Notes: generated by a model from the sequence alone, not told the origin. A stretch of DNA of 64,000 nucleotides from an uncultured Candidatus Saccharibacteria bacterium (GCA_964473815.1 CAYYQK010000001.1:881-64880), one strand, 5' to 3'; counted from the stretch's first letter, positions 18,462 to 40,666 are shown. Translations and numbers: made by a program.

Positions 18462-19199
18462 ATGAACAACGCTAAAACAAAATTACAATCTCTTGGTTTC
18501 ACTTCAGGACACGCGCAGTTACTAACCGTAGCTGTTGCGGTTTTCGTCGTGCTCTTTGTTGCGAAGAGTGGAATCAATTGGAAAACAGTTTTTGTACATG
18601 CTGATTCTCAAACACACATGCTAACTTATGATGAAGCTTTAGCACAAGCGCAAAATGAAATCGGCGCAGTTAACCCAAATCAAGATGACGGTTCAGCAGA
18701 ACAAATTGCTTTGCTTGATCGCAGCAACATTGATGGAAAAGTTTTGGGTGATGCAATTGGTGTTGGTGAAATTCCTGACGCTGATCAAATGTTGTTGCCA
18801 GATATTGTGAATCAATTGAAGATAAATAATTCTAACAATGATTCGCAAGCTGCGCGACAGCAATATGTTTCAGCTGTTCAAAAAATTGAAAACGATGCAC
18901 AGATCACAAGTTTGCTCGCAGACTTAAATACAGATGACAAAGACACATTGCGAAGTTCGGCTGACGGGTGGAATTGGACAATCAAACAAATTAGTAATGT
19001 CCCGGTACCACCAAGTTTGCAAAAATATAATCAGGACAAGTTAGTTTACTATTCGGTGATCATGAACATTGCCAAAATTTATGCCGGTGACCAATCCGAG
19101 GATGGCCTGCCATTAATGACAAAAGCAATGATAAGTTACAGCGACAAAATGGATGCATTGCAACAACAATTAAATTCTCAATACAATTTGGGTTTGTAG
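18462..19199 (+). CDS. membrane-anchored hypothetical protein (start set at ATG; the listed ORF begins at TTG 18423, overlapping the upstream gene)
   Basis: N-terminal TM (LLTVAVAVFVVLFVA), then an extracytoplasmic domain. Confidence 0.45.
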   Translation: MNNAKTKLQSLGFTSGHAQLLTVAVAVFVVLFVAKSGINWKTVFVHADSQTHMLTYDEALAQAQNEIGAVNPNQDDGSAEQIALLDRSNIDGKVLGDAIGVGEIPDADQMLLPDIVNQLKINNSNNDSQAARQQYVSAVQKIENDAQITSLLADLNTDDKDTLRSSADGWNWTIKQISNVPVPPSLQKYNQDKLVYYSVIMNIAKIYAGDQSEDGLPLMTKAMISYSDKMDALQQQLNSQYNLGL

Positions 19200-19212
19200 T
19201 TAATATAGAGCG

Positions 19213-21168
19213 ATGAAACTTTTTAATATTAAAAATTTAGCAATTTTGATTCTCACCATCGCAATTGGTGTGAATGTTTTTTTGCCAAACATGACTGTGG
19301 AAGCGCAAAGCATTCCTGGGACTGGTAAAGTTCCTGTTGCTGACAGCGGTGTGTTAAAGGCAATTAATGGATGTGACCAAGGAACTGGTATCGGAACTTT
19401 GGACAATGCAGCTTGTAAGGCGGCAAACGCTTTGATCACTTCTTTAAGAGAAGGTTTGGGTACTGTTTGTGTTCAAGCTTTAGATAAATTATCTACAGGC
19501 GGCGTAAATAGTTTCTTAAGTTCTCTAGGTTCTTCTAGTTTTTCTATAATTGGAGGCAGCGAAGCCGAAGCAACTTTAAATAGTGCCCAGTCAAAAGCAT
19601 TAACTACAGCATATGAATGCGCATCGGGTTATGTTTCGATTTTAAATTCACCTGCGACTGCTGCGAAAATTTCAAATTTAAAAGAGTCACAGGATGTAGC
19701 GCGTGACGAACAAAACTTTACCAGCATTCGCGATGCCTTAGGACAGCGTGTTGATGCAATGAACGCTCGTGCATCAGCAAGTTGGAAAGATGTGCTTAAA
19801 GCCATTATGGTGAAAACCATTTTGAAGCTCAATCAAAATCTCACCACCAGCGTTGTAAATAAATTAGTACAGAATTATAAAATCTCTGATTATTCAAAGT
19901 ATGGTGATGCTTTGGCTACCCAGGTTTACAGCATGAAGTATATCAACGATCATTTTAGTGGTGACGGCGAAACCCAAATGATGATCCGCTCGGTTTTGCA
20001 GTCTGACAAACTTCCAGATAAACTCAAAACAGTGCAGGCTATAGCGCAAACACAGGCTCAAACCTATTTAGGCAAGTCTTGTAATGTTACTTCGGATGCC
20101 GCAGGAGAGCAGGATTTGAACTCATATATCAAATGTTTGGCAGCATATGGTTCTTCTGGGGCAAATCCAGAGTTCCGCGTACAAACAGCGTTAGACAATG
20201 CCCAGGCAGCCAAACAAGCTGGACAAACTAATGCTGCAGCTGAAATCTCGCAGAGCAATGGATTTGTTCCGCCGCGTAATTGTAGCGGTTCAATTACTTT
20301 GCAAAAACAAATTGATGATCAGTTTGACAAAGCAACAAACGATAAATTAATCGCTGAGTCGGCCGCATCCAAGCTCGAACAGGCTTTGAAGCTGGGTAAA
20401 ACCACCCAAGATCAACTTGATAAAGCTAATCAAGCTAAGTCTCAGGCTGAAGCAAATTACGATGCTTTGAAGAAGCAAACAAATAATCCAATTATCGATA
20501 TTTGTGAAAGCATTGCTTCACCTGCCCAGTTTGTATCGTCTACGATTGGTGATTTCTTGAAACAGCATCTAGATCAATCATCAAATTTGAAGAGTGATAA
20601 CTTGCCATTCTATGCGAACTTCCTGTCTGACATGGCTACCAACTTCTTAACCAACATTTTAACCGGCGGCAAGAGCAATACTCAGTTATTAAAAGAAGAA
20701 GGTGCTTTGGGAATTAGTGCCGCCACTGCTGGTTTGCAAGAATCAGTGACTAAAGGCACCAATCCGCTTGGTTTGCCAGGCGGTGGTAGTACTTACCCTC
20801 AAGGACAGTTAAGCATTTACGGATACGATCCAGCGGACTCCAGCTCAGGACGCTTAACTAATTTAACACCAGGCAAAACTTATACAGTTGTAGTAGACTT
20901 CACTCAGTTAATTACTAACAAACCAATCTCAATTGCAATCTCTGCAGGTTCAACTAATATTGCTCGCGACTTAACAAGCAGTGAATTAGGCAACGAACGG
21001 GTTACATTTAATTACACAGCAACAAAAAGTCCGTTAGAAGTTAATGTCACTTTGTATGGCGCAAATAAAGTCTCGCTCGCTACTAGTTCGACAACATTAG
21101 GTGTCACAGGACAGGTAAATGGAGCCACTACAGTTTTACCTCGCGGACCAGCAATCGTGATTCGATAA
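19213..21168 (+). CDS. large secreted protein with coiled-coil segment, hypothetical
   Basis: Signal peptide. Central coiled coil (KLEQALKLGKTTQDQLDKANQAKSQAEANYDALKK). Beta-rich C-terminus. TAATAT 6 nt before ATG. Confidence 0.5.
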   Translation: MKLFNIKNLAILILTIAIGVNVFLPNMTVEAQSIPGTGKVPVADSGVLKAINGCDQGTGIGTLDNAACKAANALITSLREGLGTVCVQALDKLSTGGVNSFLSSLGSSSFSIIGGSEAEATLNSAQSKALTTAYECASGYVSILNSPATAAKISNLKESQDVARDEQNFTSIRDALGQRVDAMNARASASWKDVLKAIMVKTILKLNQNLTTSVVNKLVQNYKISDYSKYGDALATQVYSMKYINDHFSGDGETQMMIRSVLQSDKLPDKLKTVQAIAQTQAQTYLGKSCNVTSDAAGEQDLNSYIKCLAAYGSSGANPEFRVQTALDNAQAAKQAGQTNAAAEISQSNGFVPPRNCSGSITLQKQIDDQFDKATNDKLIAESAASKLEQALKLGKTTQDQLDKANQAKSQAEANYDALKKQTNNPIIDICESIASPAQFVSSTIGDFLKQHLDQSSNLKSDNLPFYANFLSDMATNFLTNILTGGKSNTQLLKEEGALGISAATAGLQESVTKGTNPLGLPGGGSTYPQGQLSIYGYDPADSSSGRLTNLTPGKTYTVVVDFTQLITNKPISIAISAGSTNIARDLTSSELGNERVTFNYTATKSPLEVNVTLYGANKVSLATSSTTLGVTGQVNGATTVLPRGPAIVIR

Positions 21169-21210
21169 GTCAGTTGAAAAACTGAAGATAAAATTTTTCT
21201 AAAGTTTTTT

Positions 21211-21240
21211 AAAAGCCACCCTCCTTAGGGTGGTTTTTGA
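21211..21240 (+). terminator. rho-independent terminator
   Basis: ccaccct-cctt-agggtgg hairpin followed by T5. Lies after the 19213 gene and before an extended -10 TGtggTATAAT at ~21293. Confidence 0.55.
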
Positions 21241-21350
21241 TTAATTTTTTATATCCCCAGACCAACTTGCAAGAGTTTGGGTTTTTGGGGGTCTATGTGG
21301 TATAATAATCATAAGGATTTCAGATTTTAGACCCTCTTTTAGACCTACTT

Positions 21351-24300
21351 TTGACCTCTAAACTTGTGTTCACGAAACAAAGACAAAATTTAAAATTTTA
21401 TAAGAAAATAAAGCAATTTTTCCTACTATTTTTGACCTTAATCCAGGCCAGTTTTTTGTTTTTGAGCATTTCGCCGCTTATTTCTAAAAACGCGATAGCC
21501 GATAGCTTGCTGTGTACTTACAGCGCGAATGATGGATCCCCAAGAGGTGCAAACTCTATTTCTATTTCTACATCTTCGATCAAAGATTCCGAAGGAAACC
21601 AGATTGGCATTCAGGGCAGTATCCAGGTTATTTATGAAGCTGGAAATGCTCAAGGCATAGATTACAATAATAGTTTGGTTGCTTGTAGTGCTGATAATCT
21701 AGCGCCATATATCACTTTAATTGAACAAAATACTATCCGTGATAATCAAACCGTTTCTTCGGAATTCAGATTACAAAATGTTGCGGTAAATTCTGCAAAA
21801 ACAAAAGAAGGTGCAAACACCCTTAGTGTAAAAGGTGACTTTAGTATTCCAAATTTAGCGAGTTCGGGTTTAAATATTAATAACTTACAGAGTTATACCA
21901 AAATTCCGGCCTCCAATGTTAGAACCGTATATTTGAACTATAGTACCAGAGAGGGTAGTGGTTCCACCGGCATTACCAAATCTCCTTTTTTAAGTACTGG
22001 CAGAGACACTTATGACGCTAATCGCACTGTAAACTTATATGTTTGTAAGAATGGTACTCTTATTTGCGCAGACGTGAACTCTGGTTCGGGTGGGCCTAGT
22101 GGCGACCCAACAACAACAAACGATTTACAAATTAAATTAGGATCTCTGAAGTTGGGAGTTCGTCCGTCGGTTTCTGGGGTATCAAAGAGTATGACACCAG
22201 ATCCTAAAAAAGCGTTTATTAGAACATACATTGATGAGAATGGTAAGATAGCTGGTTTTAGTTTGGACGCCTTTATCATTCCAGCAGCACCTCCTGATAA
22301 AACTTTATATATTAAAGATGGTTCCAATAACAGTTCAGTTATAATTGGCGATCCAACCAACCTTGCCTTTAGTCCAAAGAAGGTTTTAAACTTGGGGGCA
22401 CAAATATTTAATAAAGATATTTTATTTGATTCTGCGAACAAATACGGCTGTATTAAGAATGACTTCAGTACTAATTATGTAATTGGTAATGAAACCGTGG
22501 TATTTAATTTTTGCAACCCAGCAGTTAAAGATATAGTAAATAATCAGCTGCATGTAAAAACCGATGGTTCGGCCGGTCAAAACTTCACACTAGCTTTAAA
22601 TGACACATTACTTAAGGGTTTGTTAGCATCCAATCAAGTAAAATGTACGGACCCAAAAACAGGTGAGGGATGTGATGAGACCTTAAATAAAATTCAAATT
22701 GCTCCACTTTTGAGCATAGAGAAGGCGCCTACAGCAGACACTACTTGGACTTCATTTTTTTCCAAATTACCCCAAGTAGTTGGGCAATACTTGTTAGACT
22801 CAGGGTCGGTTCCTCTTACATATACCCCAGCTGATTTTTACATAGAAATATATCCATCTAAGGCAGCTTTTGATAAGCATATTAACGATCCACCTCCGGC
22901 CGCAGTACCAGATATTCAAGATGTCGTAAGTACGGCGCAAGCAGGAACACAATCGACCGCACAAACTCTTTATGCGTTCATTGTCCGGATAATTTCAAGT
23001 ATTGTTGTTTGGCTGCAATCAATAATTTATCGAATTTTTGCTTACATTGTAGTACCTATTTTGAAAGCATTATTGAGCGTCCGTCCATATCAAGATGTAT
23101 TTGTAAATATTATCTACCCTGGCTGGTTAATTTTACGTAACTTAGCTAACATTTTCTTCATCCTTTCTCTTCTAGTTGTAGGATTAAGGATTTTGTTTCA
23201 GCAATCAGCTTCTGGAGCGGCAAGAGGGTTTATTATTAGGCTCGTGCTAATGGCGTTGCTGGTTAATTTTAGTTTAGTCATTGCTCAAGGCATTGTTGCT
23301 GTTGCAGACACGGTACAGTCACAATTCTTGCCAGCTAATTCTCGTGTAATTGAAGCTCTGGGCGCCAAGCTTATGGTTGAACCTTTGAAGAATTTCAATG
23401 AGGAAGTAGATAATAAAACTAGTATCACAAACTTAAATGCGGACCAGTCGCAGCTTGCTTTAGCTGATACTGTTAAGCCGTTGGTGTTGTTGATCTTATC
23501 AGTAGCGTCTTTCTTCTCCTTCTTGGCCATTGCAGCATTTTTGCTAGTTCGATTGGTGGCTTTATGGGTGCTATACATGACATCACCAATAGCGTACGTC
23601 GGTTTAGTTATGGGCGAGACCAGTTCGTATGCCAAGCAATGGTGGAATGAGTTTATCCATTATGTAATCATGACTCCGGTTCTGGTGTTCTTCTTAAATA
23701 TTGCTGCTCTTATGGCGATCGCCTTTTCTGGTTCGAATGATACACTCTTTAAATTCAATCAGGATAATACTCTATCTGGTGACGTTGTGATTGGCACCTT
23801 AACGATCCTCACCCACTTTATTGTTTTGGCAGTCATTTATGCAGGTATGAAATATGCCAGCAAGATGGGTGGAGCAGCAGGTAAAACAATTGTTAAGTAT
23901 GCACAAAAAGGATTTCAAAATACTTTCAAAAAACCATACCAATGGGGCAAAGCAGCTGCGATGCCAACCAAAGATTTTGTTGGAGATAAGGCTTCTGTTG
24001 GAATGGGTAAATTATTTGGCAGCAGAGCAGAAAATGTTACTCAGGCATTATTCAAGCCAAAAGATGCTTTGAGTAGTTTGAAACGTGGCATGCTAGATCG
24101 TCCTGGTGAAGACCGAAAGAAGCGGGAAAAGAAGCGCTTGGGCACGATTGATGACCAGGCTTACAAGATTATGAACAACAAGTGGAAGGCAGCAAAATAC
24201 GCGGCTTCTACACTTGCCGGCAATGGTCCTAAATTTGCTTATGGGCAAGGCTCTGCCAAAGTTGACGAGTCCCAGATATTAACAGACAAAGAATGGCAGG

Positions 24301-25514
24301 CAGCCCAGAATGATCTCACTAAAAACAAAACTGCCTTTGACGCTGCTAATGGAAGAAAAGAAGATTTCTATAAAGGATTAGTTGATGAATCGGATATAGA
24401 TAAATCATTAGGTGCACTCCAAGAAACAAAGAGTAAATTAGAAGCTGAAAGAAATGATGCGATTGCAGCTAACGATAACGAACAGGTTCAAAAAATTACT
24501 AATCGCATTGATAAGATCGATCGACTTACAAATGAACTTAATGGCGCAAAAAATGGAGCTGTTAATGGTAAAATTGATTTTAGAAATTTTCAAGATTCTA
24601 TCCCTGATGATTTGCAGGTTGAAGCTTCGGCAGTATTCGACCCAAATCAAATAAATATGGAAATCAACAAGGCTGTTAAAGATGCAGAAGCTGAAAAGAG
24701 TCGCTTGGAAGGTTTGATTCAACAAAATGACGAACGTCGCAAGAAATTTGGATACGGCGATGCAGATCCGGCGGCAGTAGGACACCGGGCCATGATAATT
24801 GCTGAAAGAGTAAGTCTGTCAGATCAGGGAAATAAAGAAATGGCAGATGCCCAAAAGCGATTCCTTGCTCCAAGTTTGGCAGAAAGAGAAGCGCGGGTTT
24901 CCGGCGAAAGAGAGCAGGCTAAAAAAATAGACGAAATAGACGATCCTGAAGAATTGTCAGCGCAATTTGAAGGAGCAATGAAAAAGAATAATATGGCTTT
25001 GGCAACTGCGATTGCGAAAAAAATGGCTAAGGAAGGTAACTTTGATAAGTTGCTGAGTGCTAATGGTTATGAAAATAATTTAAAGTCTTTCCAGGCTTTC
25101 ATGGAAAAACACTTTAAAGATATGGCCCCACAAATCCGCATGCAGATTGCTTCCGAGATAGGTTCTATAGCTGCTCAAAATGGTAACACCACCTTCGTAA
25201 AACCTACCAAAGTTGACCAAGGGGTTATGCGATGGAGTACTGAACAGGAACACCTTGCTGCCAAGCAGAGCAAGATTCAAAGTGCCTCAAGTTATGATTT
25301 GGCGAAGAAAAAGCTTTACGAAATATCCTACCAACAAAATGGTAAAAGCTATCTGGAAAAAGGTGCTATTGATAACTTTAACAGTATGACTCCCGAAAAA
25401 CTTAGAAAATATATTGAACGGAAATCTCCAAAAGAATTAGAGGATTTGAAGAAATTCGAAAATTACAGTTTATTAATGCCTGGTGTGCAGCAATTATTAG
25501 AGTCAAAAAGGTAG
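21351..25514 (+). CDS. giant (1387 aa) polytopic membrane protein: secreted N-domain, ~7 TM helices, long K/E-rich coiled-coil cytoplasmic tail; VirB6/TrbL-like by architecture
   Basis: No ATG is available in the first ~280 codons, so a TTG (21351) or GTG (21366) start is required. TM cluster at aa ~530-830. C-terminal 550 aa charged coiled coil. Confidence 0.5.
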   Translation: MTSKLVFTKQRQNLKFYKKIKQFFLLFLTLIQASFLFLSISPLISKNAIADSLLCTYSANDGSPRGANSISISTSSIKDSEGNQIGIQGSIQVIYEAGNAQGIDYNNSLVACSADNLAPYITLIEQNTIRDNQTVSSEFRLQNVAVNSAKTKEGANTLSVKGDFSIPNLASSGLNINNLQSYTKIPASNVRTVYLNYSTREGSGSTGITKSPFLSTGRDTYDANRTVNLYVCKNGTLICADVNSGSGGPSGDPTTTNDLQIKLGSLKLGVRPSVSGVSKSMTPDPKKAFIRTYIDENGKIAGFSLDAFIIPAAPPDKTLYIKDGSNNSSVIIGDPTNLAFSPKKVLNLGAQIFNKDILFDSANKYGCIKNDFSTNYVIGNETVVFNFCNPAVKDIVNNQLHVKTDGSAGQNFTLALNDTLLKGLLASNQVKCTDPKTGEGCDETLNKIQIAPLLSIEKAPTADTTWTSFFSKLPQVVGQYLLDSGSVPLTYTPADFYIEIYPSKAAFDKHINDPPPAAVPDIQDVVSTAQAGTQSTAQTLYAFIVRIISSIVVWLQSIIYRIFAYIVVPILKALLSVRPYQDVFVNIIYPGWLILRNLANIFFILSLLVVGLRILFQQSASGAARGFIIRLVLMALLVNFSLVIAQGIVAVADTVQSQFLPANSRVIEALGAKLMVEPLKNFNEEVDNKTSITNLNADQSQLALADTVKPLVLLILSVASFFSFLAIAAFLLVRLVALWVLYMTSPIAYVGLVMGETSSYAKQWWNEFIHYVIMTPVLVFFLNIAALMAIAFSGSNDTLFKFNQDNTLSGDVVIGTLTILTHFIVLAVIYAGMKYASKMGGAAGKTIVKYAQKGFQNTFKKPYQWGKAAAMPTKDFVGDKASVGMGKLFGSRAENVTQALFKPKDALSSLKRGMLDRPGEDRKKREKKRLGTIDDQAYKIMNNKWKAAKYAASTLAGNGPKFAYGQGSAKVDESQILTDKEWQAAQNDLTKNKTAFDAANGRKEDFYKGLVDESDIDKSLGALQETKSKLEAERNDAIAANDNEQVQKITNRIDKIDRLTNELNGAKNGAVNGKIDFRNFQDSIPDDLQVEASAVFDPNQINMEINKAVKDAEAEKSRLEGLIQQNDERRKKFGYGDADPAAVGHRAMIIAERVSLSDQGNKEMADAQKRFLAPSLAEREARVSGEREQAKKIDEIDDPEELSAQFEGAMKKNNMALATAIAKKMAKEGNFDKLLSANGYENNLKSFQAFMEKHFKDMAPQIRMQIASEIGSIAAQNGNTTFVKPTKVDQGVMRWSTEQEHLAAKQSKIQSASSYDLAKKKLYEISYQQNGKSYLEKGAIDNFNSMTPEKLRKYIERKSPKELEDLKKFENYSLLMPGVQQLLESKR

Positions 25515-25520
25515 TAAAAT

Positions 25521-26720
25521 ATGGAACCGCAAGAATTCCAAAATTTAATATTCCAAGCTATAAATTCTGATGACTCGGCAGCAGCCATTCAGGTTTTAGT
25601 GGCGCATAAAAATGACCCGTCTTTAGAATTGCCTCAAAATGTTGAACTTCAAATGAAGTACATTCGCATGATGAGTTTAACTGGTGAACAGCTCGTCAGC
25701 TTGATGAAACAATCCGTTTTGGCAGCCTACTCGATCCCTGAATTTGATTTGGTTGAAAAAATCAAAACCTATCTTACTCAAATGGATGATACTTTCGGTG
25801 AGATTAATCTGATTAGAAGCATTATTACTATTTTGGAAAATAGTGAAGAGATTTTGGGTAAGGGCACAATTGAAATGAAGGAAGGACCTGCCAAACCAAC
25901 AATTAAAAATTGGATTGAAGATTACCTCTCACTTTCTACATTAGAAAACGAAAAAAATGCTTTCACTGAACTCCAATACATAAATACATCTCAAAACGCA
26001 AAAGCGCTAACTACCGTTCAGGAAAAGGAAATTCTGAAGAACATTCTTAAATTAATCGATTACTGCATCGATATTAATGATCTGTGGGAGTCTGAGCCAA
26101 CACCTAAAACAGAAGCTGACGCCTACCCTGACTTTGATCTGTATAAATTTATTCCTGGCGTACGGGAGTATCTGGAAGATGAAGATATTCCACAAACTGA
26201 AGCCCCTCAACAACCCCAAATGCCCCATTTTGCGGAAGATTTGCCAACGGGTCATTATGTTGACGGTTTAAAACCGGAGTATACTGCTCCAAAGTTTTCA
26301 CACATAGCCAAAGATTTGCCTAATAATCAATATATAGATGAAATCTCGAGACCTGAGCCTCAAGAACCAAAATTGGCTGGTCAGCTCTCAGGTCAGCAGC
26401 CACCGGTAAACAAGAGTTCGACATTGCAAGGCTTAGCGAAACCAGCCCCTGTGTTGAACCAAATCTCTGGTAACAGGTCTGCAATGCCTGCAAATGATCA
26501 GGCAAAAATTCGTGAGTTACTCAACAATAAAAGCGCCGCTGATATTTCCGAACTTATCAAAAAAGCCACTCCTGTTCAAAAGCCGGGCGTTGTTAAAGAT
26601 GACACAAATATAAGTTTAAAAGATGAAAAAGAAAGACTGGAAAAAGCTCGCACCGAGCAGATTGATAGCATTGCTCAAAAGTTAGAAGATTTGCGCAACC
26701 GCCAAAAACAAAAGCAATAA
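25521..26720 (+). CDS. hypothetical cytoplasmic protein with tandem DLPxxxY(V/I)D repeats and a Q/P-rich region
   Basis: FAEDLPTGHYVDGLKPEYTAPKFSHIAKDLPNNQYIDEI internal repeat. No TM. Confidence 0.5.
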   Translation: MEPQEFQNLIFQAINSDDSAAAIQVLVAHKNDPSLELPQNVELQMKYIRMMSLTGEQLVSLMKQSVLAAYSIPEFDLVEKIKTYLTQMDDTFGEINLIRSIITILENSEEILGKGTIEMKEGPAKPTIKNWIEDYLSLSTLENEKNAFTELQYINTSQNAKALTTVQEKEILKNILKLIDYCIDINDLWESEPTPKTEADAYPDFDLYKFIPGVREYLEDEDIPQTEAPQQPQMPHFAEDLPTGHYVDGLKPEYTAPKFSHIAKDLPNNQYIDEISRPEPQEPKLAGQLSGQQPPVNKSSTLQGLAKPAPVLNQISGNRSAMPANDQAKIRELLNNKSAADISELIKKATPVQKPGVVKDDTNISLKDEKERLEKARTEQIDSIAQKLEDLRNRQKQKQ

Positions 26721-26724
26721 TTAT

Positions 26725-27507
26725 ATGTTTAACGCAAAACGTATCGAAGATATTCGTAATCGAATACAAACGAGCACCTTGCTTACTGACCACGAGAAAG
26801 CAGATTGGTTAAACTTGCTCGAGTTGATGAACGATAAGCAACTCACAGAGTTAGAAGAAATTTTAGATAGCAAGATCCAGGCAAATGCTATAATTCCGCC
26901 TCAACCTTCAGCACCGCTCTCCCCGCAACCAATGCCTGTACCAGAACCTGTCTCTCCAGAAAATGTTAAAGAAGCAGTAAAAGATGGTGTACAAGAAATT
27001 CTTACTGAAGAAATCCCTGCACCAGAATCAGTTGCAAATATCACTGCGCCACAACCAGCGCCAGCACCGATCCCACATACTTCTGCAATGCCACCGCTAA
27101 GCCATCTGGCAAACATCCCTTCTGGATTAGAAAATTCTGGCACAGCAGGCTCTATAAATACATCCACACCTGAAGGTATCGAACCACCTCTAGCCCCAGC
27201 TCCCGTCTCGCATACTAAAGAACACGGCACGCAAGTATTTCTACTGGACCGCTACGAAAATCTGGCCAATTTAAATATTGGTTCACTTCGGGCGCACGAC
27301 TGGGAATCGATTACCCGCCAAGTTAAGCGAGTTACCCAAGAGCATGGTTATTTCAAAGTTTTACACTTAATTGAGGCTAGTCCTTTGTTCAGTACTTATA
27401 TTAAATCTGGCCTTATGCGCTTGAATGGACAAGAATCAGAAATGACACAGGAAGAATTCGAATTTATGGCTGATTTACTCAATCACATGCGAATCAATCG
27501 ATGGTAA
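26725..27507 (+). CDS. proline-rich hypothetical protein
   Basis: PAPAPIP/PQPSAP low-complexity centre. Structured C-terminus. Confidence 0.45.
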   Translation: MFNAKRIEDIRNRIQTSTLLTDHEKADWLNLLELMNDKQLTELEEILDSKIQANAIIPPQPSAPLSPQPMPVPEPVSPENVKEAVKDGVQEILTEEIPAPESVANITAPQPAPAPIPHTSAMPPLSHLANIPSGLENSGTAGSINTSTPEGIEPPLAPAPVSHTKEHGTQVFLLDRYENLANLNIGSLRAHDWESITRQVKRVTQEHGYFKVLHLIEASPLFSTYIKSGLMRLNGQESEMTQEEFEFMADLLNHMRINRW

Positions 27508-27529
27508 ATATGGTATAATATATTGAAAC

Positions 27530-27991
27530 ATGCAATTTCCAGTTCCACAATTTACTGATGTAGAGGACCGCATTATTGGCGGATTATCGTTTAAGCAGTT
27601 CGGCATTGTGTTTGCTGCTGCTGTTTTTACTTTTGTGATGTATATCATCAGTAACAAAAATATTCCCGTTGCGATCGTTACTGGAATTGTGACTGGTGTC
27701 CCGGCTTTAGCATTAACTTTTGGCAAATTAAATGGTCGACCGCTCTATGCCAGCGCTGGTAACTTCGTAAAATATTTATTTGGCGCCAAAATTTACGTTT
27801 TTCATAAACAAGGCCAGACAATTTCTGAAACAGATAAAACCGCTGTAATAGTAGAACAGCAACCTGAACCAAAAGATCCAAAAGCGACTACGATCAAAAT
27901 AAAGGAATTAAATTATTTACTGCAACAACAAGCATCGGAAGAAAATATGTTGCTGCAACGTATCCGTGAAAATAAGGCCGCTGCTAAATAA
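27530..27991 (+). CDS. small two-TM membrane protein in the VirB3/PrgI-like position upstream of VirB4
   Basis: Two hydrophobic helices. Extended -10 TGgTATAAT 10 nt before ATG. Confidence 0.45.
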   Translation: MQFPVPQFTDVEDRIIGGLSFKQFGIVFAAAVFTFVMYIISNKNIPVAIVTGIVTGVPALALTFGKLNGRPLYASAGNFVKYLFGAKIYVFHKQGQTISETDKTAVIVEQQPEPKDPKATTIKIKELNYLLQQQASEENMLLQRIRENKAAAK

Positions 27992-27996
27992 ACAAA

Positions 27997-28692
27997 ATGG
28001 CAAATACCAAAACAAAAAAAACTATTGGCAGTCCGACGCAGAGCTTTTTGAGGGTGGCCGAAATTCGCGATGACACCATAATTATGGACGACGGCACTTT
28101 GCGCGCGGTATTGACTGTGTCGAGTACAAATTTTGATTTAAAAAGTGAAGAAGAACAAAACGCTTTGATTTATAGCTATCAAAGATTTTTGAATTCTTTA
28201 GAGTTTCATATTCAGATTGTATTGCAAAGTCGCAAGATGGACATCAATGAATACACAGAAAAGTTGAAAGGCTTAATGGAACGCCAAACCAATGAACTAC
28301 TACGTATGCAAACCACAGAGTATATTGAGTTCATTAACCGTTTAGTTGAGTCAGCCAACGTGATGAGCAAAAATTTCTATGTGATCGTACCCTACGAAAG
28401 TAGTTTAAATTCAACTGTTTCGGTTGGTTTCTTTAGTCGGATATTAGGAACTGGCAAAGTTCAGCAACTTGAAGCAAAAAGTAAGGCGTTTGCTGACTAT
28501 CGAAAAGCATTAAGCGAACGCGTTGGTAGTGTAGCAGCAAACTTAGGCAGTGCTGGTTTGCGCGTAGTGCGTCTGAATACTGACCAACTCATCGAACTAG
28601 TTTATAATTCGTACAATTTTGGCGCTGGTCCAACTATCGATGCCAGTCAGTTACCGAAAGTAACCATTACCGAAGAGGAGATTAAAAAATGA
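27997..28692 (+). CDS. hypothetical protein translationally coupled to VirB4-like ATPase; possibly a detached VirB4 N-terminal domain
   Basis: Stop overlaps the next start (ATGA). Combined length 231+614 aa matches a typical VirB4 (~800 aa). Confidence 0.45.
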   Translation: MANTKTKKTIGSPTQSFLRVAEIRDDTIIMDDGTLRAVLTVSSTNFDLKSEEEQNALIYSYQRFLNSLEFHIQIVLQSRKMDINEYTEKLKGLMERQTNELLRMQTTEYIEFINRLVESANVMSKNFYVIVPYESSLNSTVSVGFFSRILGTGKVQQLEAKSKAFADYRKALSERVGSVAANLGSAGLRVVRLNTDQLIELVYNSYNFGAGPTIDASQLPKVTITEEEIKK

Positions 28693-30533
28693 GTTTATTC
28701 TCACTAAAGAAAGATGATTTAACTGCTAAGCGTCAGGAGCTTGAGCATTTAAAGGGGCAAATTTCCGCCGATGCAAAACTCGCCGAAGTCGAGCAAGATT
28801 TTCGCGAAGGTTTAACAACCTTAAAAGATTTACTCGCTCCATCAAGTTTAAAATTTACTGGTAATTATTTTGAAATTAACGGTAAATTTGCGCGGACGTT
28901 TTTTGCCTTGGCTTACCCAAGGTTTTTGTCATCGAACTGGCTTAGCTTTATCATCAACTCGGAAAGTGCCTTAGATGTGTCGATGTTTATTTATCCGGTC
29001 GATAGTGCTGTGGTCATGAAAAAATTGAAGTCCAAGGTAGGGGAAATCGGCTCGCAAATTATTGTTGAGCAGGAAAAAGGTTTAGTGCGTAATCCATTGC
29101 TGGAAACAGCGTATCACGATGTTGAAGAGCTTCGCGATTCTTTGCAACAGGGAACAGAACGATATTTCCGTTTCGCATTGTACTTTACTCTATATTCCGA
29201 CACACTTGAAGAACTCGACAAGAATTCAAATATTTTAGAAAGCGCACTGGGTGCAAAACTAGTTGTGACAAAGCGCGCCATGCTTTCCACTGAGCCTGGG
29301 TTTAACTCCACTCTTCCTCTTGGCCTTGATGAACTCGATATTGCCAATAACTTAAACACTTCGCCGCTGTCGAGCACTTTTCCTTTCGTGTCTTCGGATT
29401 TAACCGGTAATGATGGAATTTTATATGGGATTAATCGGCACAACAATAGTTTGATTTTATTTGATCGCTTCCAAATGGAAAACGCTAATTTTGTGGTATT
29501 CGCAAAATCTGGTGCTGGAAAATCTTACTCAGTTAAACTAGAAATTTTACGTTCGCTCATGGTTGGTACTGAAGTTATCGTCATTGACCCGGAAAACGAG
29601 TATCAACATTTGGCCGAAGCTGTTGGCGGAACGTTCCTAAACATTTCACTCAACTCAGATTTCCGCATCAACCCTTTCGATTTACCAGTTGGCGTAAAGG
29701 ACGAAGAGCCTGCCGATATTTTGCGCAGTGCAATTATTAACCTGCTCGGCTTGATGAATTTAGTGTTGGGCGATTTAGACCCAACCGAGGAAGCGTTGCT
29801 CGACAAAGCGATGTGGGCTACATACGCGAAAAAAGATATTACCGAAACAACTGACTTCAGAACTGCAGAAATGCCTGTGATGGCAGACTTAATTGAAGTT
29901 TTGTCTGGCACGGTGGGAGCGGAAAGCCTAGCACAAAGATTAGAAAAATTTACTAGCGGGACATTTGCTGGGTTGCTTAACCAACCAACTAATGTCCAGT
30001 TAAACAACCAACTATTAGTCTTTTCTATTCGCGATCTGGAAGATCAACTGCGCCCGATCGCAATGTATATTATTCTTGGCCATATCTGGAACTTAGTTCG
30101 TAGTGAACTAAAGAAGCGCATTTTGGTTTTGGATGAAGCCTGGATTATGATGCAGCATGAAGATTCAGCTAGATTTGTATTCAGTATTGCCAAACGTGCC
30201 CGCAAATATTACCTTGGGCTTACTACCATCACTCAGGACGTTGCCGACTTTATGGCTAGTCCGTATGGTAAACCAATCGTAACTAACTCATCAATTCAGT
30301 TACTGCTCAAGCAAAGCCCGGCTGCCATTGATATAGTCGCCGAAACTTTCTTCTTAACCGAAGGCGAAAAATATTTACTACTCGAGAGCGATGTTGGCGA
30401 AGGAATTTTCTTTGCTGGTTTAAAGCACGCTGCTATCAAGATTTACGCTTCGTATGTTGAGGACCAGATCATTACAACAGATCCGAAACAGTTGCTTGAA
30501 ATCGAAGAGAGTAAAGAACAATTAAAGAGTTAA
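28689..30533 (+). CDS. VirB4/TrbE/TraC-family type IV secretion ATPase (C-terminal ATPase domain)
   Basis: Walker A FAKSGAGKS, VirB4-signature Walker B ILVLDEAWIM, and conserved RKY/TQ motifs downstream. Confidence 0.8.
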   Translation: MSLFSLKKDDLTAKRQELEHLKGQISADAKLAEVEQDFREGLTTLKDLLAPSSLKFTGNYFEINGKFARTFFALAYPRFLSSNWLSFIINSESALDVSMFIYPVDSAVVMKKLKSKVGEIGSQIIVEQEKGLVRNPLLETAYHDVEELRDSLQQGTERYFRFALYFTLYSDTLEELDKNSNILESALGAKLVVTKRAMLSTEPGFNSTLPLGLDELDIANNLNTSPLSSTFPFVSSDLTGNDGILYGINRHNNSLILFDRFQMENANFVVFAKSGAGKSYSVKLEILRSLMVGTEVIVIDPENEYQHLAEAVGGTFLNISLNSDFRINPFDLPVGVKDEEPADILRSAIINLLGLMNLVLGDLDPTEEALLDKAMWATYAKKDITETTDFRTAEMPVMADLIEVLSGTVGAESLAQRLEKFTSGTFAGLLNQPTNVQLNNQLLVFSIRDLEDQLRPIAMYIILGHIWNLVRSELKKRILVLDEAWIMMQHEDSARFVFSIAKRARKYYLGLTTITQDVADFMASPYGKPIVTNSSIQLLLKQSPAAIDIVAETFFLTEGEKYLLLESDVGEGIFFAGLKHAAIKIYASYVEDQIITTDPKQLLEIEESKEQLKS

Positions 30534-30534
30534 T

Positions 30535-31635
30535 ATGTTTTTGGACGACGACCGCGATTTCTCTTCGTCCTCGGACGCAGTTCGTCGAGCGGACGATGAG
30601 CTTTTTAATGATGGTTCGACCGTTGCAGATTCTGAATATCAAAGCACTAACGAATACGGTCAGCAAGATCCAGATTATCAGGCTTATCGGCAGTCAGAGC
30701 AGCAACAGGAACGCAAACGTAGTTTATTAGAAGAAGCCAAACGACAAGCTCGACGAGGTCGGGCAACTGTACAAAACACAGTTCCTAAAAAACTTGGAGA
30801 AGCATTAGGTGATAAGCACATGTTCCGAGATGATACAGACGAAGCACGCGAAAGAGCCAAAGAAATAGCCAGAAAAAAGGCGCGCAAAGCCGCCTCTGAT
30901 TTTATTGGCGACAAAGTTGCTGACAAAGGCCTGAAGACAGGAATGCGTAAAGCGCTGTCTAAAGAAGCGGGCGCTACTGCTAAAGCAGGGGCGAAAAAAG
31001 CCGCGCAGTCGGTTGCTAAAGGCGCAGCAAAAACTGGTGCAGAAACCGCAGCTAAGGAAGGGGTAAAGGCGGGAGCGAAACTCGCAGCTGATAATATTGG
31101 AACAGCTGTTGGTGCAGCTACTGGTGTGGAAACATTTGGATTTGGGTTTTTACTTGGATTATTGATTAATATCGCGGTCAGCTTAGGAGTGAATGATGTT
31201 GTTGATGCAGCCTTTGAATTAAGTAGTGGAAATTTTAAGCGCGCCCGCTTTTTATACATTAGAGGTGGTACACGAGTCGGTATATTTGTTATTTTCTTAT
31301 TAGTCATAATCGGGATGTTAACCATTGGAGGGATGATCGCAGCAATACCAGCATTATTTGCCTTAAACATTTACATGATTTTAGGAAAAATTTATCCGAA
31401 TTTTGCGCCACTGCAAGGTATAGTCTGGTGGGAAGCAGCGATAATTATTATCATTGATATTTTTGCAATTTTAATAGCCTTTGCATTTATAATGAGCTTG
31501 GGTTGGTATTTGTGCAATGGTGTAGGTACTACGGCGGTCGCTGTGTATAACTGGTGGAGCCCAAGTGCTGCCGGAAGTGTGGCAGCTCAATTCTGTAAAT
31601 TTGTTAATACTGTTGCTGGAACCATTAAGCCGTAA
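30535..31635 (+). CDS. membrane protein: acidic disordered N-terminus, K/A-rich segment, ~5 TM helices (VirB6/TrbL-like or other T4SS membrane component, speculative)
   Basis: Composition and hydropathy only. Immediately follows the VirB4-like gene. Confidence 0.45.
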   Translation: MFLDDDRDFSSSSDAVRRADDELFNDGSTVADSEYQSTNEYGQQDPDYQAYRQSEQQQERKRSLLEEAKRQARRGRATVQNTVPKKLGEALGDKHMFRDDTDEARERAKEIARKKARKAASDFIGDKVADKGLKTGMRKALSKEAGATAKAGAKKAAQSVAKGAAKTGAETAAKEGVKAGAKLAADNIGTAVGAATGVETFGFGFLLGLLINIAVSLGVNDVVDAAFELSSGNFKRARFLYIRGGTRVGIFVIFLLVIIGMLTIGGMIAAIPALFALNIYMILGKIYPNFAPLQGIVWWEAAIIIIIDIFAILIAFAFIMSLGWYLCNGVGTTAVAVYNWWSPSAAGSVAAQFCKFVNTVAGTIKP

Positions 31636-31739
31636 CGAATGTTAAAATTTTGATTTTCATCATCAAAGATGGTATACTATAGAAAATTACAGATCAAGAA
31701 ACAAACAAGAAAAAGCGTTAGCAATAAAAGAAAAATTTT

Positions 31740-32885
31740 GTGAATAAAAGAGCGATTATTATTTTAGGAGCAGTTTTCATCCTGATTGTAGGGGTGTTAG
31801 GTTTTTTGATTTACAAACGCAGCACTTCCAATAGCAATTCCAATACGGTTGCCAATACTAATACTACAACTACACCCGTCCAAACCGAAACTCCGCCACC
31901 AGACAATACGCCTACTACTCCAGCCTCTGCCGCAGTTAGGTTAACTGATGCGGGCGATGCAATTATCACCCCGGCTTTGACTCTCCAGGGCAACGGTATT
32001 GATTATTTAAATACCAAGGGTCAGTTATTCCAAACTGATTATGATGTAACAGGCGGGACTGCCTTGCTAAAAAATAAGCGCGAACTTTCTATTCCTTTAA
32101 AATCCAGCATCTCGCAAATTATTTGGCCAACAGCTGGTAATAATTTTATTGCCCAGTTTAATACTGGCAGCAAGCCAACTTGGAGTGTATTCCAGGCCGA
32201 TAAAGCAGCCTACGCAGACATCCCGTCACAGGTTTATAGTATTGCCTGGATGCCAAGCGGAGACAAAGTGGCCTTTGTATGGGTCGATGGTTCGGGTAAA
32301 GCAACTTTGAACATTGGTAACCCAGACACAACCGGCTATCAATCTTTGTTTCAATTTTATGAATCTGATGACAACATAAGCGTTGCCCCAGATGGCCAAC
32401 ATTTCGCGTTTTGGCGAACACAGACTTCTGATTATTCTAGCAATCAAATTGTAATGGTAGACAAAACTGGGAAGATTTTCAACGTTATCGTAAAGGACGG
32501 ATATAATACTGGTGCAGTATGGAGTCCGGACAGCAAAAAGATTTTGTTTAATAAGCGGGATCCAAGTTCACAAAAGATGGCTCTTTGGGAAGCCGATGTA
32601 ACAACTGGTGAAACTAAAAATCTAAACGTAGATACAACCTTAGATAAAGTTCTTTGGTCCCGTGACGGCTTTACTGTTTTTGCGGGCGTGCCAAATACCG
32701 GAACTGCCGGACAAGGTTTAACGCAAGATACAATTTATAAAATCAATACTACTTCCGGTGATCAAAAGAAATTTGAACCTGGCTTAGCTGTAGACGCCCG
32801 TGCTTTGTTATTGAGCACAGATTTCTCTATTTTGTTCTTCCTCAACGCTCAAGACAATTCTCTGTACTATATTCCTGTAAACTAA
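31740..32885 (+). CDS. TolB-like beta-propeller protein with N-terminal TM anchor
   Basis: GTG start. Repeated PD40-like motifs (WMPSGDKVAF, WSPDSKKILF, APDGQHFAF). Confidence 0.55.
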   Translation: MNKRAIIILGAVFILIVGVLGFLIYKRSTSNSNSNTVANTNTTTTPVQTETPPPDNTPTTPASAAVRLTDAGDAIITPALTLQGNGIDYLNTKGQLFQTDYDVTGGTALLKNKRELSIPLKSSISQIIWPTAGNNFIAQFNTGSKPTWSVFQADKAAYADIPSQVYSIAWMPSGDKVAFVWVDGSGKATLNIGNPDTTGYQSLFQFYESDDNISVAPDGQHFAFWRTQTSDYSSNQIVMVDKTGKIFNVIVKDGYNTGAVWSPDSKKILFNKRDPSSQKMALWEADVTTGETKNLNVDTTLDKVLWSRDGFTVFAGVPNTGTAGQGLTQDTIYKINTTSGDQKKFEPGLAVDARALLLSTDFSILFFLNAQDNSLYYIPVN

Positions 32886-33054
32886 AAAGTCCCGCATAGA
32901 TATTCCCTAAGAGTACTATCTGCGCCCAAATGGGAGGCCTTTAGGCCGAACCATGTAGCGCATCTAGTACTCGTGGGAATGCTATGTGGGCTTTTAATTT
33001 CTTAAGGAAAATTTTAAGTAGAATCGGGGCTAGGCGTGTGGTAAGATTAGAATA

Positions 33055-34374: not shown

Positions 34375-34381
34375 TTTTTAT

Positions 34382-34424
34382 AAAAAAAGTAAGACCCGGC
34401 CTGTGGCTGGGTCTTGTTTCAAAA
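34382..34424. terminator. bidirectional rho-independent terminator
   Basis: aagacccggcc-tgtg-gctgggtctt hairpin flanked by A7 and T-rich runs. Lies between convergent genes. Confidence 0.6.
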
Positions 34425-34441
34425 TCACCGAATGTGGGAAT

Positions 34442-37021: not shown

Positions 37022-37022
37022 G

Positions 37023-37098
37023 TGGTGCTCCCGGCAGGGATCGAACCTGCGGCCTTTCCCTCCGGAGGGGAACGCTCTATCCACTGAGCTACGGAAGC
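37023..37098 (-). tRNA. tRNA-Arg (anticodon CCG)
   Basis: Hand-folded cloverleaf: acceptor GCTTCCG/CGGGAGC, U8, D-arm GCTC[AGTGGATA]GAGC, anticodon stem TTCCC/GGGAA with loop CTCCGGA, T-arm GCAGG-TTCGATC-CCTGC, discriminator A, CCA encoded. Confidence 0.85.
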
Positions 37099-40502: not shown

Positions 40503-40572
40503 ATTATCTATATTATAGCATTTTGACTGGTAACAAAAAAATCGGCTCGCGCCGAATCTGGTTGGGGTTCCC

Positions 40573-40666
<94 letters not shown>

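What the first reader, a model, noticed from the sequence alone, without database searches (positions are those of the whole stretch)
21351..25514. 1387-aa tripartite membrane protein with no ATG start available
The reading frame is open from a TTG at 21351 (GTG at 21366). The first in-frame ATG is ~280 codons in. A near-consensus extended -10 (TGtggTATAAT, ~21293) and three tandem copies of a ~10-nt motif (ttttagacc/ttttgacctc) lie immediately 5'. The protein has a secreted beta-rich domain, seven TM helices and a 550-aa K/E-rich coiled coil. This is VirB6/TrbL-like in layout but far larger.
Basis: seen in the sequence. Interest (0 to 1): 0.55.

Follow-up and report, generated by a model that had tools for sequence, protein, structure and literature searches.

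The report
Giant VirB6-like secretion-channel protein, non-ATG start
This gene encodes the oversized "VirB6-like" membrane subunit of the type IV secretion machine that ultrasmall Saccharibacteria-type (Patescibacteria) bacteria carry on their chromosome. It is an ordinary member of a very large, mostly unannotated family, and the one mildly new point is that its closest relatives almost all avoid an ATG start codon.

Summary
The ORF at 21351-25514 is real, and its first in-frame ATG is codon 281. A perfect TGTGGTATAAT box sits at 21296-21306, and a 12-nt tandem repeat of 2.8 copies sits at 21325-21356.

Its size is normal for the family: 10,544 cluster representatives match, and most of the top 150 are 1000-1550 aa. 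The membrane core is conserved (69% identity). The beta-sandwich ectodomain is hypervariable (16%). The C-terminal part is a confidently folded helical-repeat domain, not a plain coiled coil.

The likely start is GTG 21366. In the close clade, 14 of 17 independent loci have no ATG before the signal anchor, against 6 of 116 neighbouring ORFs. The tandem motif is specific to this lineage and is probably not an operator.

The Patescibacteria type IV secretion system and its essential virB6 gene are already published. Verdict: a new member of a known kind, of low to moderate interest.

The parts
18423..19199 (+). g258: small single-pass membrane protein, a conserved upstream partner gene. The ENA annotation starts 13 codons later, giving 245 aa.
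   Evidence: ORF list. Homologues lie upstream of the VirB6-like gene in 7 close-clade loci. No Pfam hit.
19213..21168 (+). g651: secreted 651-aa protein with a signal peptide, a conserved upstream partner gene of unknown function.
   Evidence: ORF list. Homologues lie directly upstream of the VirB6-like gene in 11 loci. No Pfam or NCBIfam hit.
21209..21240 (+). Intrinsic-terminator-like hairpin with a T run. It ends the g258-g651 unit and separates it from the VirB6-like promoter.
   Evidence: It has the longest stem, 14 pairs, among the terminator-like sites found in 18000-34500. Inverted repeat I1. By eye, analogous G+C hairpins followed by T runs sit just upstream of the promoter in L009, L010, L012 and L019.
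21276..21286 (+). TTTGGGTTTTT, a -35-like element. The TTGGGT hexamer lies 18 nt before TATAAT.
   Evidence: Read from the sequence. Similar TTTGnGTTTTT blocks occur at the same distance in L001, L006, L009, L019, L021 and L023.
21296..21306 (+). TGTGGTATAAT: -16 'TRTG' plus a consensus -10. This is the promoter of the VirB6-like operon.
   Evidence: One of 2 matches in the window against 0.3 expected. The same 11-mer class (T[AG]TG[GT]TATAAT) lies 22-87 nt before the start in 15 of 18 close-clade loci. It is found upstream of the VirB6-like ORF in 18 of 70 loci, against a background of 0.023.
21313..21365 (+). Inferred 5' leader of about 50 nt. It has no Shine-Dalgarno sequence near the start and is weakly structured. 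The transcription start is inferred, not mapped.
   Evidence: Its RNA fold is weaker than that of 198 of 200 shuffles (z = +1.8). No Rfam family reaches its threshold. The block TAAGGATTTCAGAT is shared with L001, L006 and L007 but is read in different frames, so it is non-coding.
21325..21360 (+). Tandem 12-nt repeat (TTTTAGACCCTC, TTTTAGACCTAC, TTTT-GACCTCTA). It is a lineage-specific 36-nt block inside the leader, and the TTG at 21351 lies inside copy 3.
   Evidence: Tandem Repeats Finder and repeat family D3. Absent from all 17 other close-clade loci. Identical in the same-strain contig L002.
21366..25514 (+). CDS of the extended VirB6-like protein (1382 aa from GTG 21366; the alternative start TTG 21351 gives 1387 aa).
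   Evidence: The GTG is favoured because the homologous GTG is the only possible start in L010 and L012. Family N-termini read M/V-[FLIV]-KKQIQK.
21366..21497 (+). N-terminal signal peptide or anchor (aa 1-44): a K-rich n-region, a hydrophobic core, and AIA|DS.
   Evidence: Hydropathy. Aligns with the P0002 signal region and its AKA|AD site.
21498..22940 (+). Extracellular beta-sandwich ectodomain (aa 45-525) with 8 Cys. It is hypervariable across the family.
22941..23870 (+). Polytopic VirB6/TrbL-fold membrane core (aa 526-835) with 6-7 long hydrophobic helices.
23871..25511 (+). Cytoplasmic C-terminal region (aa 836-1382): a basic linker of low model confidence (aa 836-940), then a folded alpha-helical repeat domain (aa ~941-1382).
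25521..27507 (+). g399 and g260: two soluble proteins of unknown function. They are tightly packed behind the VirB6-like gene (gaps of 6 and 4 nt) and are conserved partners in the close clade.
   Evidence: Homologues occupy the same position in 14 and 18 loci.
27509..27519 (+). TATGGTATAAT: a second consensus promoter, 10 nt before the prgI ATG, which makes that mRNA near-leaderless.
   Evidence: The second of the 2 matches in the window. The same motif lies upstream of PrgI in 16 of 52 loci.
27530..30533 (+). PrgI (VirB3-like, 27530-27991), TraC-N/TrsD-like (27997-28692) and VirB4 ATPase (28689-30533): the signature genes of the type IV secretion system.
   Evidence: Pfam PrgI scores 36.3 bits against a cutoff of 27. 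NCBIfam CD1110-family VirB4 scores 365.9 bits against a cutoff of 325. PF26593 TraC-like is precomputed. The order VirB6L-PrgI-TraCN-VirB4 holds in 43-52 loci.
30535..32885 (+). g366 (unknown function) and g381 (PD40/TolB-like beta-propeller): distal genes of the locus. Their membership in the system is inferred.
   Evidence: Both are conserved behind VirB4 in L001 and L006, and g381 also in L013.

Best explanation
The ORF encodes the 'extended VirB6' subunit of the chromosomal, monoderm-type (MPF-FATA-like) type IV secretion system (T4SS) of a Saccharibacteria-like member of the Patescibacteria.

Shown here:
- The membrane core has the VirB6 fold.
- The gene heads a tightly packed unit (VirB6-like, g399, g260). 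That unit is followed by prgI(virB3), a trsD-like gene and virB4.
- A terminator, a consensus TRTG-TATAAT promoter and a leader without a Shine-Dalgarno sequence precede the gene.
- Translation must start at a non-ATG codon, most likely GTG 21366.

Inferred:
- By analogy with TrwI/VirB6 of plasmid R388, the core oligomerises in the cytoplasmic membrane. There it would form the platform or channel on top of the VirB3-VirB4 ATPase complex.
- After signal-peptide cleavage, the N-terminal disulfide-bonded beta-sandwich domain projects outward through the wall. It would be the surface-exposed, fast-evolving part of the machine, in contact with the host cell or with pilus or adhesin parts.
- The conserved cytoplasmic helical-repeat domain docks ATPase, substrates or partner proteins such as g399 and g260.
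- The conserved weak start codon, set behind a strong promoter, keeps output of this large polytopic protein low relative to the downstream ATG-initiated genes.

For: Sequence: Pfam TrbL is weak in this protein but reaches E <= 0.01 in 13 of 32 relatives, best 5.4e-6. Precomputed TrbL and TrbL_3 hits exist on this protein and on its homologues.

Context: PrgI, a TraC-like protein and a CD1110-family VirB4 lie downstream. The same gene order holds in every metagenomic locus that extends far enough, 43-52 loci.

Family size and architecture: 10,544 representatives match at E <= 1e-3, and most of the best 150 are 1000-1550 aa. Median identity is 69% for the core, 16% for the ectodomain and 25% for the C-domain.

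Start codon and promoter.

Literature: the Patescibacteria T4SS is described as MPF-FATA-like, chromosomal and usually without a relaxase, and virB6 is essential in S. epibionticum (PMC12102498). Table S2 of PMC10633639 lists SEML1_0013 as TrbL/VirB6-like with an ARM-repeat-like C-terminal part. Extended VirB6 proteins are a recognised class of unknown mechanism (PMC12857230).
Against: This protein's own Pfam TrbL score (14.6-17.3 bits) is below the gathering cutoff of 25.9.

The Foldseek E-values to TrwI are weak (0.05-0.2; TM-score 0.40-0.48 normalised to the target).

No sequence-level match exists to any PDB chain or to plasmid T4SS genes.

The helix count from AF2 (six long membrane helices) does not by itself give the N-out/C-in topology. 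That topology needs an odd number of helices.

Oligomeric state, partners, substrate and the role of the weak start codon are all inference. No VirB2-like pilin genes, coupling protein or relaxase were identified in this window. Only the larger ORFs were scanned.
Confidence: 0.85

Rival explanations
1. The locus is part of an integrative conjugative element. The protein would then be a TcpH/PrgH-type VirB6 of a DNA-conjugation machine, not a host-interaction system.
For: VirB4 meets the NCBIfam 'conjugal transfer ATPase, CD1110 family' cutoff. PrgI and TrsD-like genes are typical of Gram-positive conjugative elements (PMC12102498).
Against: The flanks are housekeeping genes (ArgRS, a class I tRNA synthetase, RecO, PcrA, RsmA, RadA, RecG, ClpB). 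No relaxase, coupling protein or integrase was found among the ORFs scanned. The same PcrA-RsmA-DUF192...VirB4 synteny recurs in an orthologue of only 44% identity. The literature reports that most Patescibacteria T4SS lack a relaxase (PMC12102498).
Confidence: 0.07
2. The membrane domain is an unrelated permease, for example ABC-2 type as KEGG K01992 labels the S. epibionticum homologues. In that case it would merely be fused to surface and cytoplasmic domains, and the resemblance to VirB6 would be convergent.
For: KEGG assigns K01992 to SEML1_0011 and SEML1_0013. The Pfam TrbL score here is sub-threshold.
Confidence: 0.03
3. The lack of an ATG is an annotation or assembly artefact. The real product would start at the internal ATG (codon 281), or an upstream ATG was lost through an error.
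For: ATG is the start of most genes in this genome. The orthologue P0002 is annotated with an ATG.
Against: The 280 codons before the first ATG are conserved at the protein level, at about 48% identity to P0002 overall and 48% across the ectodomain, including 8 invariant Cys and a signal peptide. An independent assembly gives the same DNA. Fourteen of 17 independent close-clade loci also lack an ATG, against 6 of 116 control ORFs (p = 7e-12). The ATG of P0002 lies inside the conserved -10 box and is read in a different frame relative to the conserved DNA, so it is probably a miscall.
Confidence: 0.02
4. The tandem TTTTAGACC repeats are an operator for a transcription factor, or a binding site for a translational regulator that controls T4SS expression.
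For: Three head-to-tail copies lie between the promoter and the start codon. A fourth near-copy, CTATTTTTGACCT, lies 81 nt downstream.
Against: The repeat is not conserved in any of the 17 other close-clade loci, although the promoter and parts of the leader are. The motif is not enriched elsewhere in the window. No regulator gene is adjacent. The period is 12 nt and one copy carries an indel, as expected of a recent slippage duplication.
Confidence: 0.08

Closest known systems
TrwI/VirB6 of plasmid R388 (PDB 7o3v, 8rt9, 8rtd) and classical VirB6/TrbL (Pfam PF04610)
   Different: This protein is about five times longer. It adds a ~480-aa extracellular beta-sandwich domain at the N-terminus and a ~550-aa cytoplasmic helical region at the C-terminus. 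The host is a monoderm, with no VirB7/9/10 outer-membrane complex and no recognisable VirB5. Sequence identity is only 12-15%, and the Pfam score is below the family cutoff.
'Extended VirB6' proteins: Rickettsiales RvhB6/VirB6 paralogues, F-plasmid TraG, and Gram-positive TcpH and PrgH
   Same: The concept is the same: a VirB6-type hydrophobic core with large extra hydrophilic domains whose role is unknown (PMC12857230; PMC2653234 and PMC7648143). TcpH and TraG are cited from my own knowledge.
   Different: The extensions share no detectable sequence or fold relation. Here the N-terminal extension is a secreted Ig-like module array. The C-terminal extension is an alpha-solenoid conserved across thousands of Patescibacteria proteins.
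SEML1_0013 (and SEML1_0011) of the essential T4SS of Southlakia epibionticum ML1 (Wang et al. 2023, PMC10633639)
   Same: The locus type is the same, with PrgI, a TrsD-like gene and VirB4 of nearly identical sizes. SEML1_0013 is a 1088-aa 'hypothetical protein' whose structure-based annotation is TrbL/VirB6 plus an ARM-repeat-like C-terminal part. It is essential in Tn-seq at T1 and T2. PMC12102498 calls the virB6 of this strain essential.
   Different: The membrane domain of SEML1_0013 starts at about aa 156, so its ectodomain is much shorter. That strain has a VirB2-like pilin array next to the gene, which was not seen in this window.
DotA of the Legionella Dot/Icm type IVB system (PDB 9ngy)
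   Different: It belongs to a different T4SS class in a diderm. Identity is 8%. Its extra domains are unrelated.

Membership tests
VirB6/TrbL (Pfam PF04610 and related TrbL_3 PF19590) | Sequence match to the family profile at or above the curated cutoff | tested here: inconclusive
   This protein scores 14.6 bits (whole protein) and 17.3 bits (core only) against a cutoff of 25.9. A precomputed TrbL_3 hit is marked 'weak'. Thirteen of 32 relatives hit TrbL at E <= 0.01, best 5.4e-6. Several shorter homologues carry PF04610 or PF19590.
VirB6/TrbL | Polytopic membrane core of five or more hydrophobic helices | tested here: met
   Hydropathy gives 6-7 segments between aa 531 and 834. AF2 predicts long membrane helices with pLDDT mostly 80-90.
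VirB6/TrbL | Three-dimensional fold like solved VirB6 (TrwI) | tested here: met
VirB6/TrbL | Encoded within a T4SS gene cluster next to virB3/virB4 | tested here: met
   PrgI, a TraC-like gene and VirB4 lie 2-3 kb downstream on the same strand. The same order holds in 43-52 independent loci.
VirB6/TrbL | Required for substrate transfer or pilus assembly; oligomer at the base of the channel | not testable with these tools
   The only support is by analogy with R388 (PDB 7o3v) and the Tn-seq essentiality of the S. epibionticum virB6 (PMC10633639, PMC12102498).
Extended VirB6 | VirB6 core plus one or more large hydrophilic domains | tested here: met
   The ectodomain is about 480 aa and the cytoplasmic region about 550 aa. 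The definition is from PMC12857230.
Patescibacteria MPF-FATA-like chromosomal T4SS | VirB4 of the monoderm type, with a separate TrsD/TraC-N-like protein and PrgI-type VirB3 | tested here: met
   NCBIfam CD1110-family VirB4 scores 365.9 bits against a cutoff of 325. Pfam PrgI scores 36.3 against 27. PF26593 TraC-like is recorded on the 231-aa protein. A VirB4 phylogeny was not run.
Patescibacteria MPF-FATA-like chromosomal T4SS | Chromosomal housekeeping context, with no relaxase or coupling protein in the cluster | tested here: met
   The flanks are PcrA, RsmA, RadA, RecG, tRNA synthetases and ClpB. No relaxase or T4CP family appeared among the scanned ORFs. Small ORFs and the rest of the genome were not scanned.
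Patescibacteria MPF-FATA-like chromosomal T4SS | Host organism belongs to Patescibacteria | tested here: inconclusive
   The closest orthologue's contig is titled 'uncultured Candidatus Saccharibacteria bacterium'. Other relatives are labelled Patescibacteria group, Doudnabacteria or Moraniibacteriota. The window's own taxonomy was not determined, as it contains no rRNA.
ABC-2 type permease (KEGG K01992, as assigned to the S. epibionticum homologues) | Match to ABC-2 permease profiles and partnership with an ABC ATPase | tested here: not met
   No such family appears in the Pfam or NCBIfam scans. No ABC ATPase gene is adjacent.

The most novel reading that the evidence does not exclude
In the Saccharibacteria-type clade, avoidance of AUG at the first gene of the T4SS operon may be a selected regulatory device. 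GUG and UUG interchange there, but AUG is nearly absent. A strong TRTG-TATAAT promoter would be combined with an initiation site that lacks a Shine-Dalgarno sequence and is sensitive to IF3. Together they would set, or conditionally gate, the amount of channel subunit made. The hypervariable, disulfide-rich ectodomain of this VirB6 would be the part of the machine that touches the host cell. It would functionally replace VirB5 or adhesins and help determine host range.
Probability: 0.2. Interest if true: 0.55.

Novelty: new member of a known kind. Interest (0 to 1): 0.3.

Why it matters
The Patescibacteria type IV secretion system (T4SS) is the first T4SS shown to be essential for its bearer's growth. 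What it transports is unknown, and so is the way extended VirB6 proteins work.

This analysis places the gene firmly in that system. It also adds four usable details:
- The VirB6-position gene is far more widespread than profile searches have reported. Here 10,544 cluster representatives match, whereas one survey of Patescibacteria detected 480 VirB6 homologues against 2,474 virB4 genes (PMC12102498).
- The protein has a fixed membrane core, a fixed cytoplasmic solenoid and a hypervariable outer domain. That pattern marks the outer domain as a candidate host-contact surface.
- Gene callers may mis-set its start. One orthologue's annotated ATG lies inside the promoter.
- The close clade consistently uses GTG or TTG behind a consensus promoter. 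This is a simple hypothesis that can be tested genetically in S. epibionticum.

None of this changes the picture of what the system is.

Tried and rejected
**Word-indexed homologue searches.** The searches with the full protein and with a 32-sequence alignment returned only the protein itself and one orthologue. The likely cause is that K/E-rich low-complexity words filled the candidate list. The core-only query gave 25 mostly short hits. The exhaustive representative search was the informative one.

**Genome-collection scan.** It found only 2 loci.

**Sequence comparisons outside the family.** The profile search against PDB sequences gave only spurious apolipoprotein and coiled-coil hits. tblastn of the core against plasmids found nothing.

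**Leader RNA.** Rfam found nothing above threshold on the leader; the sub-threshold hits only pick up the terminator hairpin. The leader folds less well than shuffled sequence, so a riboswitch or attenuator is unlikely.

**Other starts considered.** ATT 21324 is in frame, 6 nt after AAGGA at 21313-21317. I reject it as unlikely for three reasons:
- The AAGGA would sit at the very 5' end of the transcript.
- The block is read in different frames in the orthologues.
- ATT starts are very rare.

A code-25 (UGA = Gly) artefact was also considered. It is rejected because all 14 upstream in-frame stops are TAA.

**Other checks.** No paralogue exists in the window.

Full report
**1. The observation**

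It runs 21351-25514 on the + strand and is 1387 aa from the TTG, with an in-frame GTG at 21366. The frame opens at 21315, after a TAA. The first in-frame ATG is codon 281, at window position 22191. The public annotation of the identical protein (P0001, 1382 aa) starts at the GTG.

An independent ENA assembly of the same strain has exactly the same upstream DNA. A sequencing error is therefore not the cause.

The -10 element is TGTGGTATAAT at 21296-21306. This is the 'TRTG' -16 motif plus a consensus -10, as in monoderm sigma-A promoters (that comparison rests on my own knowledge). Only two TRTGNTATAAT matches occur in the 64-kb window, against 0.3 expected. The other sits at 27509, directly before prgI.

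A strong terminator-like hairpin at 21209-21240 precedes the promoter.

The tandem motif is a 12-nt unit in 2.8 copies at 21325-21356.

**2. What the protein is**

Pfam gives only a sub-threshold TrbL/VirB6 match for aa 604-827 (E 0.029; 0.004 for the core alone).

Three further lines of evidence settle the assignment:
- Among 32 family members scanned, 13 hit TrbL at E <= 0.01, best 5.4e-6. Shorter homologues carry precomputed TrbL or TrbL_3 domains.
- The gene is followed on the same strand, with gaps of a few bases, by two unknown genes (399 and 260 aa). Next come PrgI (VirB3-like, above the Pfam cutoff), a TraC-N/TrsD-like protein and a VirB4 ATPase. The VirB4 meets the NCBIfam cutoff for the CD1110 conjugal-ATPase family.

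I searched the window's neighbour proteins against the six-frame ORFs of 82 related loci. The order VirB6-like, PrgI, TraC-N, VirB4 recurs in all 43-52 loci that extend far enough.

The rest of the window is housekeeping: ArgRS, a class I tRNA synthetase, RecO, PcrA, RsmA, RadA, RecG, ClpB and tmRNA. No relaxase, coupling protein or integrase was found among the ORFs scanned.

The nearest orthologue (44% identity; 48% over the first 1200 aa) shows identical synteny. It lies on a contig titled 'uncultured Candidatus Saccharibacteria bacterium'.

**3. The size is the family norm**

An exhaustive HMMER search of 1.84 billion representatives with aa 1-1200 found many relatives. There were 10,544 at E <= 1e-3, 4,086 at E <= 1e-10 and 249 at E <= 1e-30. 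Nearly all of the best 150 are 1000-1550 aa long.

Across 32 relatives the regions differ sharply in conservation:

| Region | Median identity to the window protein |
|---|---|
| Membrane core | 69% |
| Ectodomain | 16% |
| C-terminal domain | 25% |

The length before the invariant YPGW motif ranges from 193 to 660 aa. The part after it stays at about 800 aa.

The C-terminal ~440 aa are predicted with pLDDT ~90 as a compact helical-repeat domain. It resembles only designed helical repeats. This is therefore not a plain coiled coil.

**4. Start codon and promoter**

Homologue N-termini share the motif M/V/L-[FLIV]-KKQIQK just before the signal anchor. The window's V-FTKQRQN aligns with that motif.

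In L010 and L012 the homologous GTG is the only possible start, because the upstream stop lies 0-2 codons before it. The TTG at 21351 lies inside copy 3 of the lineage-specific repeat, so it is not at a conserved position. I therefore favour GTG 21366 (about 0.7) over TTG 21351 (about 0.25).

Either way the start is not ATG, and that is a trait of the clade. Of 18 close-clade loci with a complete N-terminus, 14 have no ATG between the upstream stop and the signal anchor. These 14 use GTG or TTG interchangeably.

The four exceptions are:
- a near-identical pair, L006 and L007;
- L027;
- L001, whose ATG lies inside the conserved ATGTGGTATAAT box and is read in a different frame relative to the conserved DNA, so it is probably a gene-caller artefact.

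By a comparable criterion, only 6 of 116 other long ORFs in the same loci lack an early ATG. Only 2 of 27 distant relatives (<950 aa) lack one. The Fisher p-values are 7e-12 and 6e-7. All the upstream stops are TAA, which excludes a UGA-recoding artefact.

The promoter motif T[AG]TG[GT]TATAAT lies 22-87 nt before the start in 15 of 18 close loci.

Across all loci, TRTGNTATAAT lies upstream of the VirB6-like ORF in 18 of 70 and upstream of PrgI in 16 of 52. It never precedes g399, g260 or VirB4. The background is 0.023 per equivalent stretch.

Many genes of this genome have TATAAT 7-12 nt before an ATG and no Shine-Dalgarno sequence. The VirB6-like gene instead has a leader of about 50 nt. The leader has no Shine-Dalgarno sequence near the start and folds less well than 198 of 200 shuffles.

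**5. The tandem motif**

The three 12-mers are absent from all orthologous loci, although the promoter and the first part of the leader (TAAGGATTTCAGAT) are conserved. They sit exactly where L006 has its ATG. The 9-mer is not enriched elsewhere in the window. No Rfam family matches.

The simplest reading is a recent 36-nt slippage insertion in the leader. A regulatory role is not excluded, but nothing supports it.

**6. Mechanism**

Shown here:
- a VirB6-fold membrane core;
- a secreted N-terminal domain and a basic C-terminal side;
- an operon position ahead of virB3/virB4;
- the gene's own promoter and a non-ATG start.

Inferred from R388 (PDB 7o3v) and general T4SS knowledge: the core oligomerises in the membrane above the VirB3-VirB4 complex, forming the channel or assembly platform.

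Inferred from conservation patterns: the hypervariable ectodomain is the exposed, fast-evolving face, and the conserved solenoid docks cytoplasmic partners.

Inferred from the general lower efficiency of GUG and UUG starts: the weak start holds down synthesis of a large polytopic protein that is transcribed from a strong promoter.

One point is unresolved. AF2 shows six long membrane helices, whereas an N-out/C-in topology needs an odd number. The 55-residue helix at aa 692-746 may be two spans.

**7. Comparison with what is known**

The Patescibacteria T4SS is published:
- It is MPF-FATA-like, chromosomal and usually lacks a relaxase. It has TrsD-, PrgI- and VirB6-like components, and its virB6 is essential in S. 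epibionticum (PMC12102498; PMC10633639).
- Table S2 of the latter paper annotates SEML1_0013 (1088 aa) as TrbL/VirB6-like with an ARM-repeat-like C-terminal part.
- 'Extended VirB6' is a recognised class with unknown mechanism (PMC12857230).

The finding is therefore a new member of a known kind. Three points go modestly beyond the literature I could read:
- the scale of the family;
- the contrast between fixed and variable domains;
- the clade-wide non-ATG start behind a consensus promoter.

**8. Verdict**

Interest is 0.3.

Noticed in passing
L001 10001-10051 (orthologue P0002, GCA_964642585.1): The annotated ATG start of the orthologue lies inside the conserved ATGTGGTATAAT promoter box. 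The conserved DNA after it is read in a different frame than in the window. The real start is probably the TTG about 18 codons downstream (M-LKKLKNIL), so the database protein likely carries a false 18-aa N-terminal extension.
   Followed up: partly
window 27509-27519: The only other TRTGNTATAAT match in the 64-kb window lies 10 nt before the prgI ATG, which implies a near-leaderless mRNA. The T4SS locus therefore seems to have two consensus promoters, one before the VirB6-like gene and one before prgI. The pattern recurs in related loci (16 of 52 upstream of PrgI).
   Followed up: partly
window, e.g. upstream of 4206, 9022, 14342, 27530, 53916 (- strand), 54570: Many genes have a TATAAT box only 7-12 nt before the ATG and no Shine-Dalgarno sequence. 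That suggests widespread leaderless or very short-leader mRNAs in this genome. A few genes (1585, 46864) do have a clear AGGAG.
   Followed up: no
window 12692-13843 (-) and 10524-12335 (+): A LysM + CHAP peptidoglycan hydrolase and a DUF11 surface protein lie a few kb upstream of the T4SS locus. The same pair is present at the same place in the orthologous contig L001. The CHAP enzyme could be the VirB1-like wall hydrolase of the system.
   Followed up: no
window 27997-28692 and 28689-30533: VirB4 is split into a 231-aa TraC-N/TrsD-like protein and a 614-aa ATPase whose genes overlap by 4 nt (ATGA). The same arrangement is seen in all related loci and is reported in the literature for Patescibacteria.
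   Followed up: partly
window 21345-21357 and 21426-21438: A 13-mer in leader repeat copy 3 (CTACTTTTGACCT) recurs 81 nt downstream with one mismatch (CTATTTTTGACCT). The second copy lies inside the signal-anchor coding sequence. This may be chance in T-rich sequence or a trace of how the repeat arose.
   Followed up: no
window 18423-21168 and 25521-27507: Four genes of unknown function are conserved partners of the VirB6-like gene only in the close clade. g258 and g651 are secreted or membrane proteins, and g399 and g260 are soluble with Pro/Gln-rich stretches. They have no Pfam family and may be clade-specific T4SS components.
   Followed up: partly
window 31740-32885: A 381-aa protein with PD40/TolB-like beta-propeller repeats closes the locus, and its ORF also has no early ATG (GTG start). 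It is conserved behind VirB4 in L001, L006 and L013.
   Followed up: no
window 1085-1472 (-): A tmRNA gene with tag peptide ENAWNKVVAAFSNASFAPAFA. Four tRNA genes are also present (Asp, Arg-CCG, Ser-TGA, Ser-GCT). Two ORFs in the mechanical list (34916-37084 and 39768-40634) run over tRNA genes, so their listed GTG and TTG starts are too far upstream.
   Followed up: no
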